Shown piece after piece: positions 7,340-10,300 of a stretch of DNA of 64,000 bases. The notes under the pieces were generated by a model. It saw nothing but the letters and a program-made list of their open reading frames with translations. It did not search any database and was not told the DNA's origin. Made by a program: the position numbers and the translations under genes. Each line of letters opens with the position of its first letter. Within the stretch, counting starts at the first letter, position 1. Source of the stretch: the human T2T-CHM13v2.0 reference genome, Homo sapiens; assembly GCF_009914755.1 (NCBI RefSeq), contig NC_060943.1. One strand, given 5' to 3'.

Positions 7340-10300
7340 GTGAGTGTTTGGGGGAAGTGGCATCCAGACACTTGGCGTTGGCCTCCCCCTGACTCAGGAA
7401 TGTCTCTAGTCCTTCCTCTTCCAGGAGTCCAGGACCCAGCCCCTTCCTCCTTCAGACCCAGGAATCTGGATTCCCAGCCCCTGCTCCTTCCTCCAGGACC
7501 CCACTGCTTTCCATCCCCCTATGACTCCAGCCCTAGGGACCCTCCATTTTTCTGTCCCTCATGTCTTTGGGTCCAGAAGTCTTTCTGGGTCCCCCAGAGG
7601 CCCAGAGCTTCCTGAGTAGCCATACCCGGATTCCAAGAGCCAACCACTGGGACCTGGAGCTGCTCACACCAGGGAACCTGGAACGGGAGTGTCTGGAAGA
7701 GAGGTGTTCCTGGGAAGAGGCCAGGGAGTATTTTGAGGACAACACTCTCACGGTGAGGGCCTCGAGACCCTGGAGTTTCGGGCCCTCTCTCTTCTCTATA
7801 CCTGTGGGGAGGTTGCAGGGGTAGGTTCTGGCCTTCAGCTCCCTCCTCCTTGGTGTCTCAGAAATCAGGATGGGCTAGTTTGGGGGTGTGAACCTCCCAG
7901 CTGAATTCCTGCTTTTTCCCCTTCTTTTCCACTCCTTCCCCCTCAAGGAGCGCTTTTGGGAGAGCTACATCTACAATGGCAAAGGAGGTGAGTGAGGGGC
8001 TGAAGCCATCTTGTTCTGTGCAGCTAAGGTAGTCCCTTCCCAGCGAGGCCAAACCAACGTCCTCCACCCCAAATTAGGTACAAGAATCGTCTGCCCCCCA
8101 ATTCTGTGCTCTCTGAAGCTGGCTGCTAAAGGAGTTCCCTCCCTTAAGACCCCAGCTTGCCTGAGGAGCCCCCCACACCTTATTTTATTTTTAAATATTT
8201 ATTTTTGCTTTTTTTTTTTTTTTGAGACAGAGTCTCGCTCTGTTGCCCAGGCCGGAGTGCAATGGTGCGATCTCGGCTCACTGCAAGCTCCGCCTCCCGG
8301 GTTCACGCCATTCTCCTGCCTCAGCCTCCCGAGTAGCTGGGACTACAGGCACCCACCACCACACCCGGCTAATTTTTTGTATTTTTAGTAGAGACGGGGT
8401 TTCACCGTGTTAGCCAGGATGGTGTTGATCTCCTGGCATCGTGATCTGCCTGCCTCGGCCTCCCAAAGTGCTGGGATTACAGGCGTGAGCCACCGCGCCA
8501 GGCCTTTAATTATTTATTTTTGAGACAGGGTCTCGCTGTGTCACCCAGGCTGGAGTGCTGTGGTACAATCTTGGCTCACTGCAGCCTCAACCTCCCGGGC
8601 TCAAGCGATCTTCCCACCTCAGCCTCCTGAGTAATTGGGACTCCAGGCACACACTACCATGGTAATTTTTGTAGTTTTTGTACAGACGGGGTCTCACTAT
8701 GTGGCCCAGGCTGGTCTTGAATGCCTGGCCTCAAGCAATCCTTCTGCTTCAGTGTCCCAGACTGCTGAGATTATAGGTGCCAGGCCCCCCACCACATCTT
8801 ATTGGACGCAAGTCCTGTGTCCCTAGGAAGGGAAAAGTGTCAGTGGAGGGAAAGGTTAGAGCTGTGGGGCCCGTCAGGCCTTAGGCTCAGAGGGGCAGGC
8901 CCACCTGAACCCTTCCCTGGTGTCCAGAGTAAGTGGAAAGACCAGCCCCTCCGGCAGCTTGATTGCTGGGGACACAGCCCTCTAGCAACACGACCAAGGG
9001 AGGAAGCCTGCCCATCCTCACCTGCCCATTTTGCCCCCAAGAACCCCTTCTCTGAGGGGTTGCCATCTTGTTCCCATCTTGTTGCCAGCCTTGTTGCTAA
9101 GGGGGGCTGCTCCTTAGCAACGGGGCCTGGCCAGGCCAGACCAGACGAAGAAGCCTGAAGCAGTACCTGGCTGATTTCCCCTCCCCCACAGCCCCATCCC
9201 AGCAGCTGCCTGGTTGCTAAGGAGGCCTTCTCCCTAGCAACCACACCTAGCCAGGCTCCAGGACCCAAGGCCTTCTGCCCACTGGAGGACCACCCTCCGG
9301 GCCTCCGATGCCCCACCCCCTTGTGGCCCGGTTGCTAGGGGTAGCTGCACCTTAGCAACAGGCCTAGGTCTGGGCTGGAGTCTCACATTGGAGCCTGGTT
9401 GCTAGGGGAGGTAACTCTTTCCTGACAGGCCTAGCGAGGCGTAGTGGCTCCTCGAATCTACCTGAAGGTGCCCAATTCAGGAGGACCTGCCTTCTGAAGC
9501 TGCACTTGCGCCTTTTGCTAAAGGGGCTCAAAAGTCTGGGGGTTTACTGTGGTCAGATGTGGTGGCTCATGCCTGTAATCTCAGCACTTTGGGAGGCCAA
9601 GGCAGGCGGATCACCTGAGGTTCAGGAGTTCGAGATCAGCCTGGCCAACATGGTGAAACCCATCTCTACTAAAAATACAAAAATTAGCCAGGTGTGGTGA
9701 TGTGTGCCTATAATTCCAGCTACTCAGGCGGCTGAGGCACAAGAATCGCTGCAGCTGGGAGGCAGAGTTTGCAGTGAGCAGAGATCGCACCATTGCACTC
9801 CAGCCTGGGAGATGTCTCAAAAACAAACAAATGGCTGGGCGCGGTGGCTCACACCTGTAATCCAAGCACTTTGGGAGGCCGAGGCAAGCAGATCACCTGA
9901 GTTCAGGAGTTTGAGACCAGTCTGGTCAACATGGTGAAACCCCATCTCTACTAAAGATACAGAAATTAGCTGGGCATGGTGGCACGTGGCTGTAATCCCA
10001 GCTATTGGGGAGGCTGAGGCAGGAGAATCGTTTGAACCCAGGAGCTGGAGGTTGCAGTGAGCCAAGATCACACCACTGCTCTCCAGCCTGGGCAACAGAG
10101 TGTCTCCAAAAAAAAAAAAAAAAAAAAAAAACAAGGAAATGGGGTCATTTTGTCACCCAAGCTGGAGTGCAGTGGCACGATGACGACTCACTGCAGCCTC
10201 GACCTCCTAGGCTCAAGTGATCCTCCCACCTAAGCCTCCTGAGTAGCTGGGATTACAGGCATGCACCACCACGCCCAGATACTTAAAATTTTTTTTGTAG

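What the first reader, a model, noticed from the sequence alone, without database searches (positions are those of the whole stretch)
8961..9426. Array of fixed-length 29-bp palindromes made of paired RFX half-sites in PRRG2 intron 4
Seen: GTTGCTAAGG-GGGGCTGCT-CCTTAGCAAC (9093-9121), GTTGCTAAGG-AGGCCTTCT-CCCTAGCAAC (9213-9241), GTTGCTAGGG-GTAGCTGCA-CCTTAGCAAC (9331-9359). All three are exactly 29 bp, with start-to-start periods of 120 and 118 bp and unrelated 91- and 89-bp spacers. Degenerate copies lie at 8961-8989 and 9398-9426. The block is a unique island between Alu clusters. Established: CCTAGCAAC/GTTGCTA is the RFX winged-helix half-site, but the canonical X-box spans only ~13-14 bp. 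Inference: kept arms, drifting loops and unrelated spacers are not what a plain tandem duplication leaves. This suggests a selected long-spacer RFX double-site grammar (an enhancer or cell-type-specific promoter for PRRG2, NOSIP or PRR12), or a repeated hairpin/cruciform acting in RNA or DNA. I know of no description of it.
Basis: partly seen in the sequence, partly recalled or inferred. Interest (0 to 1): 0.85.

Follow-up and report, generated by a model that had tools for sequence, protein, structure and literature searches.

The report
Chr19q family of RFX-type palindrome arrays
The three 29-base palindromes in a PRRG2 intron are real, each arm looks like a binding site for RFX transcription factors, and similar unannotated clusters sit in at least eight other gene loci, all on one 7-megabase stretch of chromosome 19.

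Summary
Three 29-bp palindromes lie at window 9093-9121, 9213-9241 and 9331-9359. One-armed remnants flank them at about 8958-8992 and 9393-9426. The island is unique and not masked as a repeat.

Seven of the eight exact CCYTAGCAAC sites in the 64-kb window fall within 315 bp, against 0.52 expected for the whole window. The spacers do not align with each other.

Each arm is a single-half-site X-box. Arms of this family match the HLA-DRA X1 core letter for letter. They also match a DYX1C1 probe that bound RFX1 and RFX2 in a gel-shift assay.

The hairpin reading is not supported. Across 19 units, pairing is no better than when arms are shuffled between units (91.1% against 90.9%).

The new finding is that this locus is not unique. 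Exhaustive pattern scans find palindromes with 8-10-bp gaps at 18 loci. Eight of those lie in chr19:51.6-58.5 Mb, which is 0.22% of the genome: DBP, PLEKHA4, SLC17A7, ALDH16A1, PRRG2, MBOAT7, BRSK1 and TMEM190. A looser scan adds TEAD2. Seven of these nine are multi-unit arrays, eight are intronic, and none is masked as a repeat.

The 29-bp length is the most common of a 28-30-bp range. The ~119-bp period is specific to PRRG2.

My best reading is old, decayed tandem arrays whose arms are kept by RFX binding. Binding in cells and conservation across species could not be tested here.

The parts
8755..9549 (.). Unmasked unique island between Alu blocks, in PRRG2 intron 4. It holds the whole array.
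   Evidence: Masked repeats span 8174-8754 and 9550-10324. BLAST of 8940-9470 hits only itself. The intron is assigned.
8958..8992 (+). Degenerate unit 0. The right arm CTCTAGCAAC at 8980-8989 has one mismatch. The left arm is decayed.
   Evidence: R1 scores it 12.5 bits.
9059..9097 (+). An 11-bp tandem, GTTGCCATCTT x3.5, running into palindrome 1. It adds GTTGCC-type half-sites.
   Evidence: Tandem Repeats Finder. Family D10.
9093..9121 (+). Palindrome 1, GTTGCTAAGG-N9-CCTTAGCAAC. The arms are perfectly complementary.
   Evidence: R1 33.5 bits. DNA hairpin -14.7 kcal/mol, z -5.2.
9213..9241 (+). Palindrome 2, GTTGCTAAGG-N9-CCCTAGCAAC, with an A.C mismatch at arm position 8. The right arm and its flank share 13 letters (TCCCTAGCAACCA) with the DYX1C1 X-box gel-shift probe.
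   Evidence: R1 34.3 bits. Probe sequence read in PMC5024701.
9331..9359 (+). Palindrome 3, GTTGCTAGGG-N9-CCTTAGCAAC, with a G.T at arm position 8.
   Evidence: R1 29.9 bits.
9393..9426 (+). Degenerate unit 4. The left arm GTTGCTAGGG at 9398-9407 is perfect. The right arm is decayed.
   Evidence: (family D2). R1 14.5 bits.
9511..9526 (+). Possible sixth, very weak remnant (TTGCTAAAGGGG), 117 bp after unit 4.
   Evidence: Family D3. R1 E 3.5, which is not significant.
8643..9268 (.). RefSeq functional element 'H3K4me1 hESC enhancer'. It overlaps unit 0 and palindromes 1 and 2.
   Evidence: Annotation table.

Best explanation
The PRRG2 island is a cluster of repeated copies of one short unit. 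Each unit is an inverted pair of single-half-site X-boxes of the CCYTAGCAAC type, the kind bound by RFX proteins, set head to head with a gap of about 9 bp.

It is one member of a small family of such arrays that no repeat annotation covers. I found nine loci, all on chr19q13.33-q13.42, eight of them intronic.

Inferred history: each array began as a local tandem amplification of a short unit (palindrome plus linker). The MBOAT7 array still shows units of about 41-53 bp. Since then the linkers, loops and spacers have drifted to randomness, while the two arms were held to one consensus.

Inferred mechanism: the arms are held because each is read by a sequence-specific protein, most likely RFX family members. 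RFX5 and RFX7 read single half-sites, and RFX1 and RFX2 bind an identical arm sequence in vitro. The array would then act as a multi-site RFX docking platform inside a gene, in effect an intragenic enhancer.

What is shown: the sequences, their statistics, the family and its regional confinement, the lack of pairing covariation, and the identity of arms to known RFX sites.

What is inferred: occupancy in cells, selection, enhancer function, target gene, and the tandem origin.
For: 1. Local excess. There are 8 CCYTAGCAAC sites against 0.52 expected in the window, 7 of them within 315 bp.

2. The arms are RFX-type.
- The X-box is an imperfect inverted repeat, RTNRCC N1-3 RGYAAC. Examples in print include GTTGCC T AGCAAC and GTTGCT AGT AGCAAC (PMC2375033, passages).
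- CCCTAGCAACAG, found in arms of the family, is letter for letter the box about 95-110 bp upstream of HLA-DRA.
- The DYX1C1 probe carrying TTCCCTAGCAACCAAG was supershifted by anti-RFX1 and anti-RFX2 antibodies (PMC5024701, passages).

3. The constraint is on sequence, not on pairing. In 19 units, 91.1% of cells are paired against 90.9% after shuffling arms between units, and 271 of 500 shuffles did as well. The one variable pair is unpaired in 7 of 19 units.

4. Family and spacing. For GTTGCTAAGG-Nk-CCTTAGCAAC with up to 2 mismatches, total sites (of which chr19) are:
- N5: 2 (0)
- N8: 8 (4)
- N9: 13 (8)
- N10: 3 (2)
- N14: 3 (0)
. Every chr19 site lies in 51.6-58.5 Mb. By locus that is 8 of 18 in 0.22% of the genome, binomial P = 2.5e-17, or 5e-15 without PRRG2.

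5. Seven of the nine chr19q loci hold several units.

6. None of the nine is masked as a repeat of 100 bp or more. No spacer homology was found between loci.

7. RefSeq enhancer features overlap 2 of the 9 arrays, PRRG2 and MBOAT7. Such features cover 4.3% of the region. A third array, ALDH16A1, lies within about 50 bp of one.
Against: - I could see no binding data, and no other mammalian genome was available. Occupancy and selection are therefore inferences.
- A transcription-factor grammar should be spread across the genome, but outside chr19q the arrangement is at about chance level. That points to common descent or a regional process and weakens the 'selected RFX grammar' argument.
- The units were found by their arms, so the arm-versus-loop identity contrast is inflated by how they were picked.
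- The enhancer overlap is weak (2 of 9).
- The partners of RFX5 and RFX7 sites are absent. Within 60 nt downstream of 70 arms there were 0 CRE-like boxes and 5 CCAAT or ATTGG boxes, against about 7.7 expected by my own hand estimate.
- The positions conserved beyond the RFX half-site (GG and CC at the inner ends, CTG on the left flank) would also fit a different, unknown factor.
- The tool's own 'control' in the pattern scans reads the pattern backwards, which creates a CpG, so it undercounts. I relied on other gap lengths and on the everted arrangement instead.
Confidence: 0.5

Rival explanations
1. These are non-functional relics of an old interspersed minisatellite family enriched on chr19q, comparable to MSR1. 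The unit happened to contain a palindrome, and the resemblance to RFX sites is incidental.
For: - The regional confinement looks like a history of dispersal, not a factor's grammar.
- MSR1, a 36-38-bp minisatellite densest on chr19q, is a precedent (PMC4725990, passages).
- The MBOAT7 array has many unit intervals of 41-53 bp or multiples of that.
- Units within an array tend to point the same way.
- The three PRRG2 copies keep some loop and left-flank similarity, 0.56 and 0.61.
Against: - Neutral decay should erode arms and spacers alike. Here the spacers are at chance level while the arms are 86-93% identical, with 7 exact 10-mers in 315 bp.
- Tandem Repeats Finder sees no tandem structure in these arrays.
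- The arrays are not masked, and they do not resemble the 37-bp minisatellite at window 44566-45463.
Confidence: 0.25
2. The whole palindrome of about 29 bp is the site of a different dimeric DNA-binding protein, not RFX. That protein would read GGTTGCTAAGG including the inner GG/CC and the left CTG.
For: - Positions outside the RFX half-site are nearly invariant: G15 and G16, C26 and C27. The left flank CTG is strongly kept.
- Palindromes built from the shorter arms GGTTGCTA and TAGCAACC alone show no gap preference genome-wide (8 sites).
- The gap preference of 8-10 bp fits a dimer of fixed geometry.
Against: - I know of no such factor.
- The inner CC is also part of the X1-type box seen at HLA-DRA and in the DYX1C1 probe.
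- One-armed units persist in the arrays.
Confidence: 0.15
3. The palindromes act as hairpins in the pre-mRNA or as DNA cruciforms.
For: - The three full copies fold as DNA hairpins at -14.7, -11.5 and -11.5 kcal/mol, with z scores of -5.2, -3.9 and -2.4.
- Eight of the nine loci are intronic, several within 73-140 bp of an exon.
Against: - There is no covariation. Pairing equals what shuffling arms between units gives, and the covariation score is 0.096 against 0.099.
- Deviations from consensus are mostly uncompensated. The variable pair is unpaired in 7 of 19 units.
- No Rfam family reached its curated threshold; the best real hits were Alu-derived SRP matches at the island's edges.
- One-armed units persist.
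- Recalled, not tested: a 9-nt loop is unfavourable for cruciform extrusion.
Confidence: 0.05
4. This is a chance cluster or an effect of base composition.
For: The region is GC-rich and gene-dense.
Against: - None of 100 shuffles reached 8 sites; the largest had 2.
- Three of the 5 genome-wide exact N9 matches are here.
- Control gaps and the everted arrangement show no chr19q concentration.
Confidence: 0.01

Closest known systems
Canonical X-box, the site of RFX1-3 dimers
   Same: The same half-site letters (GTTGCY and RGCAAC) in the same inverted orientation (PMC2375033).
   Different: The two good halves are 17 bp apart instead of 1-3 bp. Each arm on its own looks like a full-length box with only one good half.
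Single-half-site X-box of RFX5 and RFX7, including the X1 box of the HLA-DRA promoter
   Same: Arms of the family carry CCCTAGCAACAG, identical to the HLA-DRA box. RFX5 and RFX7 read one half-site (PMC8287911).
   Different: In HLA-DRA the second RFX-like box (the S box, CCTTTGCAAG) lies 18 bp upstream in direct orientation, and X2 and Y boxes follow (the box names are recalled). Here the pair is inverted and no X2 or Y partner is present. These sites are intronic arrays, not promoter modules.
MSR1, the 36-38-bp minisatellite densest on chr19q
   Same: A short-unit repeat family concentrated on chr19q, found in promoters and introns, and reported to affect expression (PMC4725990).
   Different: The sequence and period differ. 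A 37-bp array that I take to be MSR1 from its period and location lies at window 44566-45463, and R1 does not hit it. MSR1 is recognisably tandem and is listed in repeat annotation. These arrays are neither.
Homotypic clusters of transcription-factor sites, as in enhancers
   Same: Many copies of one motif within a few hundred bp. Two of the nine arrays overlap RefSeq enhancer features.
   Different: The strict head-to-head pairing with an 8-10-bp gap. The confinement of the family to one 7-Mb stretch of one chromosome.

Membership tests
Canonical X-box (RFX1-3 dimer site) | Two half-sites matching RTNRCC and RGYAAC | tested here: met
   The outer hexamers GTTGCT and AGCAAC fit the published consensus.
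Canonical X-box (RFX1-3 dimer site) | Half-sites separated by 1-3 bp | tested here: not met
   The gap between GTTGCT and AGCAAC is 17 bp. The consensus spacing is taken from PMC2375033.
Single-half-site X-box (RFX5/RFX7 type, MHC class II X1 box) | One good half-site preceded by CC, as in CCYTAGCAAC | tested here: met
   All six arms of the three palindromes fit. The 12-mer CCCTAGCAACAG in family arms is identical to the HLA-DRA box.
Single-half-site X-box (RFX5/RFX7 type, MHC class II X1 box) | Bound by RFX proteins | not testable with these tools
   There is only indirect evidence. A probe sharing 13 letters with the right arm of palindrome 2 bound RFX1 and RFX2 in a gel-shift assay (PMC5024701).
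MHC class II S-X-Y module | A second RFX-like box about 18 bp upstream in direct orientation | tested here: not met
   In HLA-DRA the pair is direct, 18 bp start to start. Here the pair is inverted, 19 bp start to start.
MHC class II S-X-Y module | An X2 (CRE-like) box and a Y (CCAAT) box at fixed distances | tested here: not met
   Of 70 arms, none has a CRE-like box within 60 nt downstream, and 5 have CCAAT or ATTGG at scattered offsets, against about 7.7 expected by my hand estimate.
MSR1 minisatellite | Tandem unit of 36-38 bp | tested here: not met
   Tandem Repeats Finder finds no such period in the PRRG2, DBP or MBOAT7 arrays. R1 does not hit the 37-bp array at window 44566-45463.
MSR1 minisatellite | Highest density on chr19q | tested here: met
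   Eight of 18 loci lie in chr19:51.6-58.5 Mb.
Annotated interspersed repeat | Masked in the reference | tested here: not met
   No masked stretch of 100 bp or more overlaps any of the nine arrays. Shorter masked pieces and family names were not available to me.
Decayed ~119-bp tandem duplication | Spacers align with each other | tested here: not met
   All 10 spacer pairs gave p of 0.066 or more, and Tandem Repeats Finder found nothing. An origin too old to detect is not excluded.
Structured RNA or hairpin element | Base pairs kept through compensatory change | tested here: not met
   Pairing is 91.1% against 90.9% after shuffling, and 271 of 500 shuffles did as well. No Rfam family reached its curated threshold.

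The most novel reading that the evidence does not exclude
Chr19q13.33-q13.42 carries its own, so far undescribed set of intronic arrays of head-to-head RFX half-site pairs (28-30 bp). Selection has kept them while everything between them randomised. Together they would form an RFX-dependent regulatory or architectural layer specific to this very gene-dense stretch. The long-spacer palindrome would be a second binding mode for RFX proteins: either two single-half-site complexes back to back, or one dimer bridging about two helical turns.
Probability: 0.2. Interest if true: 0.85.

Novelty: new variant of a known kind. Interest (0 to 1): 0.6.

Why it matters
If the arms are occupied and conserved, this would be a new arrangement of RFX sites. 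It would also be a rare case of a motif family tied to one chromosomal neighbourhood. The arrays sit inside genes of medical interest, including MBOAT7, DBP, TEAD2, SLC17A7 and BRSK1.

It would also show that repeat annotation misses old arrays in which only a protein-binding core survives. If the arrays turn out to be unbound relics, they still document a second short-unit repeat family confined to chr19q, besides MSR1. Either way the test is cheap: public RFX ChIP-seq tracks and mammalian alignments at nine named loci.

Tried and rejected
- **Known RNA family.** The Rfam scan of 8700-9600 gave nothing above any curated threshold. The only real hits were Alu-derived SRP matches at the edges.

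- **Paralogous copy or transposable element.** BLAST of the island found only itself. Cross-locus alignment of nine array stretches with arms masked (72 tests) gave a best score of 29 at z 5.1, which I judge unconvincing.

- **119-bp tandem.** Rejected at detectable level.

- **General half-site palindrome.** GGTTGCTA-N0-30-TAGCAACC gave 8 sites with no gap preference.

- **Everted arrangements as controls.** CCNTRGCAAC-N0-20-GTTGCYANGG gave 12 sites, 1 on chr19 and outside the family region, and 5 belonging to an unrelated dispersed repeat. YTAGCAAC-N8-38-GTTGCTAR gave 51 sites. Of the 50 sites listed (100 rows), 2 are on chr19, and the 51st site was not shown.

- **Single-arm census.** CTGGTTGCYARGG gave 732 sites but only 100 rows were shown, so it was useless for a chromosome count.

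- **Profile scan of the whole genome.** Only 149 of 604,063 first-look candidates were scored, so it is not a census. Of its 44 rows, 32 are on chr19. It did find chr19q loci that were not in the training set: ALDH16A1, PLEKHA4 and BRSK1.

- **Regional density scan.** I obtained only alternate 10-kb blocks of chr19:52.30-52.69 Mb. Over 244 kb, R1 found only the PRRG2, TEAD2 and ALDH16A1 arrays. No matched control region could be fetched.

- **Direct comparison with the MSR1 cluster at PRPF31.** The 880 bp I fetched held no 36-38-bp tandem, so I used the 37-bp array in the window instead. Its MSR1 label is my inference.

- **S-X-Y module.** Rejected.

- **Literature.** I ran six searches looking for prior description: the 9-mer; RFX, X-box and homotypic cluster; PRRG2 with RFX; RFX with the host genes; RFX with minisatellite, VNTR and chromosome 19; and the four arm 10-mers. 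I read the listings only, and none showed a description of these arrays. They may list these loci.

- **Recalled, not seen in any call:** the HOMER RFX5 motif; the S, X1, X2 and Y box names; the RFX1 DNA-binding-domain crystal structure; and the ChIP-STARR-seq origin of RefSeq's 'hESC enhancer' elements.
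Full report
**The observation**

GTTGCTAAGG-ggggctgct-CCTTAGCAAC lies at 9093-9121. GTTGCTAAGG-aggccttct-CCCTAGCAAC lies at 9213-9241. GTTGCTAGGG-gtagctgca-CCTTAGCAAC lies at 9331-9359. 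The starts are 120 and 118 bp apart.

The two 'degenerate copies' are one-armed remnants. One has a good right arm at 8980-8989, the other a perfect left arm at 9398-9407.

The 10-mer CCYTAGCAAC occurs 8 times on both strands of the 64-kb window, against 0.52 expected. None of 100 shuffles reached 8. Seven of the 8 lie in 9093-9407.

The five spacers do not align with one another; all 10 pairs gave p of 0.066 or more. Tandem Repeats Finder reports no ~119-bp period.

The island 8755-9549 lies between masked Alu blocks. It is unique by BLAST against the whole reference. It sits in intron 4 of the RefSeq Select PRRG2 transcript. A RefSeq 'H3K4me1 hESC enhancer' feature, 8643-9268, covers the first half of the array.

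**What the arms are**

Published X-boxes are imperfect inverted repeats, RTNRCC N1-3 RGYAAC. Examples include GTTGCC T AGCAAC and GTTGCT AGT AGCAAC (PMC2375033, passages). RFX1-3 read two half-sites. [quoted passage not shown]

Each arm here has one good half (AGCAAC or GTTGCT), plus the CC that remains of the other half. That is the single-half-site type.

Two direct comparisons support this:
- The 15-mer CCCTAGCAACAGATG lies about 95-110 bp upstream of the annotated HLA-DRA start. I recall this as the X1 box. Its first 12 letters recur in arms of this family at DBP and MBOAT7.
- The DYX1C1 promoter probe that anti-RFX1 and anti-RFX2 antibodies supershifted contains TTCCCTAGCAACCAAG (PMC5024701, passages). 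It shares 13 consecutive letters with the right arm and flank of palindrome 2.

The palindrome is therefore best read as two such boxes head to head. The good halves are on the outside, 17 bp apart. It is not a stretched canonical X-box.

**Sequence or structure**

I aligned 19 units from all loci (A1) and counted the ten arm pairs. In total 91.1% of cells are standard pairs. Shuffling the 3' arms among units gives 90.9%, and 271 of 500 shuffles did as well. The covariation score is 0.096 against 0.099. The only variable pair is unpaired in 7 of 19 units.

The complementarity is thus fully explained by both arms following one consensus. Nothing indicates selection for pairing. The full copies do fold as DNA hairpins (-14.7, -11.5 and -11.5 kcal/mol), but any palindrome does. 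No Rfam family reached its curated threshold. This argues for a protein reading each arm and against a hairpin or cruciform function.

**The locus is not unique**

Exhaustive pattern scans of the reference gave an unexpected result.
Three are here, one is in a DBP intron about 1 Mb away, and one is in NFAM1 on chr22.
- With gaps of 0-20 there are 12 sites, 7 of them on chr19.
- With the consensus arms and up to 2 mismatches, the counts are as follows.

| Gap | Sites in genome | Sites on chr19 |
|---|---|---|
| N5 | 2 | 0 |
| N8 | 8 | 4 |
| N9 | 13 | 8 |
| N10 | 3 | 2 |
| N14 | 3 | 0 |

Off chr19 the counts (2, 4, 5, 1, 3) are flat and near what chance gives. The preference for 8-10 bp belongs entirely to chr19. 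Every chr19 site lies between 51.6 and 58.5 Mb of T2T chr19.

By locus, 8 of 18 fall in 0.22% of the genome: DBP, PLEKHA4, SLC17A7, ALDH16A1, PRRG2, MBOAT7, BRSK1/TMEM150B and TMEM190. The binomial P is 2.5e-17, or 5e-15 without the discovery locus. TEAD2 joins through, with a gap of 12.

The tool's built-in control reads the pattern backwards, which creates a CpG, so I did not rely on it. The everted arrangement served as a control instead, and it shows no chr19q concentration.

**What the other loci look like**

Seven of the nine chr19q loci hold several units.
- DBP intron 3 has six units over about 680 bp, starting 140 bp from exon 4.
- MBOAT7 intron 6 is almost filled by about 10 clear and 8 weak units over 1.6 kb.
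- BRSK1's last intron has six units.
- PLEKHA4 intron 2 has four.
- ALDH16A1's last intron has three.
- TEAD2 intron 10 has two.
- TMEM190 has four, ending 22 bp upstream of exon 1.
- SLC17A7 intron 2 has one.

Eight of the nine are intronic. None overlaps a masked repeat of 100 bp or more.

With the arms masked, the arrays share no convincing similarity with one another. A sequence-only profile built from the 19 units (R1) found no further arrays in 244 kb of the neighbourhood beyond PRRG2, TEAD2 and ALDH16A1. In a partial whole-genome pass, 32 of its 44 rows were on chr19, including loci not used to build it.

Non-chr19 sites that I inspected are single palindromes.

- The 29-bp length is the most common of a narrow range, not a constant. 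Among chr19q units with up to 2 mismatches I count ten with a gap of 9, five with 8, two with 10, one with 12 and two with 13.
- The ~119-bp period is a PRRG2 peculiarity. In MBOAT7 many intervals are 41-53 bp or multiples of that. Two adjacent units there are 41 bp apart and still alike outside the arms. Other arrays are irregular.
- Within PRRG2 the three copies keep some similarity in the loop (0.56) and the left flank (0.61), against 0.93 in the arms. This fits descent from one duplicated unit.
- The unit is slightly asymmetric. CTG is kept on the left, and a looser A/C-R-G on the right.
- Units within an array tend to point the same way. In most intronic arrays they run antisense to the host gene, with PRRG2 the exception. 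This is a weak trend that I did not test formally.

**Mechanism**

The facts to explain are three: arms held to one consensus, everything between them randomised, and confinement to one chromosomal stretch.

I think the arrays arose by local amplification of a short unit, in the manner of a minisatellite. Some regional process that I cannot identify then seeded the same unit along ancestral chr19q. MSR1, a 36-38-bp minisatellite densest on chr19q, is a precedent for such a distribution (PMC4725990, passages). A 37-bp array that I take for MSR1 sits in this very window at 44566-45463. It is unrelated in sequence, since R1 does not hit it.

The differential decay then needs a sequence-specific constraint on each arm. 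RFX proteins are the obvious candidates, which would make the arrays multi-site RFX platforms inside genes.

Support from annotation is thin. Two of nine arrays overlap RefSeq enhancer features, which cover 4.3% of the region.

The arrays are not MHC-type S-X-Y modules. The pair is inverted rather than direct. CRE-like and CCAAT partners are absent: 0 and 5 of 70 arms.

**What remains open**

I could not test RFX occupancy, cross-species conservation, human variation or repeat-family names. The units were ascertained by their arms, so the arm-versus-spacer contrast is partly built in. The strongest unbiased evidence is the count of exact arms in the window together with the exhaustive genome scans.

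A non-functional relic family, or a non-RFX reader of the whole 29-mer, remains possible. Six literature searches (listings only) turned up no description of these arrays. Supplementary ChIP-seq peak tables were closed and might mention the loci.

**Verdict**

Noticed in passing
window 44566-45463: A 36-37-bp minisatellite of about 20 copies at 80% matches, unit CCTGGGTCTGAGGGAGGAGGGGCTGGGGGCCTGGACT, in a PRR12 intron. Its period and chr19q location fit MSR1 as described in PMC4725990. The label is my inference.
   Followed up: partly
window 47701-48661 and 39133-39688: Two further minisatellites in PRR12 introns. One has a 33-bp unit x29 at 90% matches. The other has a 24-bp purine-rich unit x25 at 74%.
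   Followed up: no
window 9059-9097: An 11-bp tandem, GTTGCCATCTT x3.5, runs straight into palindrome 1. It supplies extra GTTGCC half-sites just upstream of the array.
   Followed up: no
window 54907-54916: A lone arm (GTTGCTAGGG on the + strand) just after an Alu poly-A, with no partner arm nearby.
   Followed up: yes
window 9387-9391: An ATTGG starts 28 nt after the right arm of palindrome 3, close to the 29 nt between the X1 box and the ATTGG in HLA-DRA. It is one case among 70 arms and is not a family feature.
   Followed up: yes
G000 chr1:173346166, chr2:43688076, chr5:155044279, chr15:28985509, chr17:17470546: Five near-identical everted pairs, CCCTGGCAAC-N16-GTTGCTATGG, look like copies of one dispersed repeat that carries X-box-like motifs.
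   Followed up: no
L005 1501-1551 (chr22, NFAM1 intron): The only non-chr19 exact N9 palindrome has the family's CTG left flank. A further GTTGCTGAGG lies 41 bp downstream, so it may be a true outlying member.
   Followed up: partly
L001 2268-2870 (DBP intron 3): Alu insertions split the DBP array, with units on both sides at 2139-2177 and about 2896-2921. The array therefore predates those insertions.
   Followed up: partly
L007 (MBOAT7 intron 6, chr19:57259160-57260990): The array occupies nearly the whole 1.8-kb intron, from 81 bp after one exon to 126 bp before the next. It overlaps two RefSeq hESC enhancer features.
   Followed up: partly
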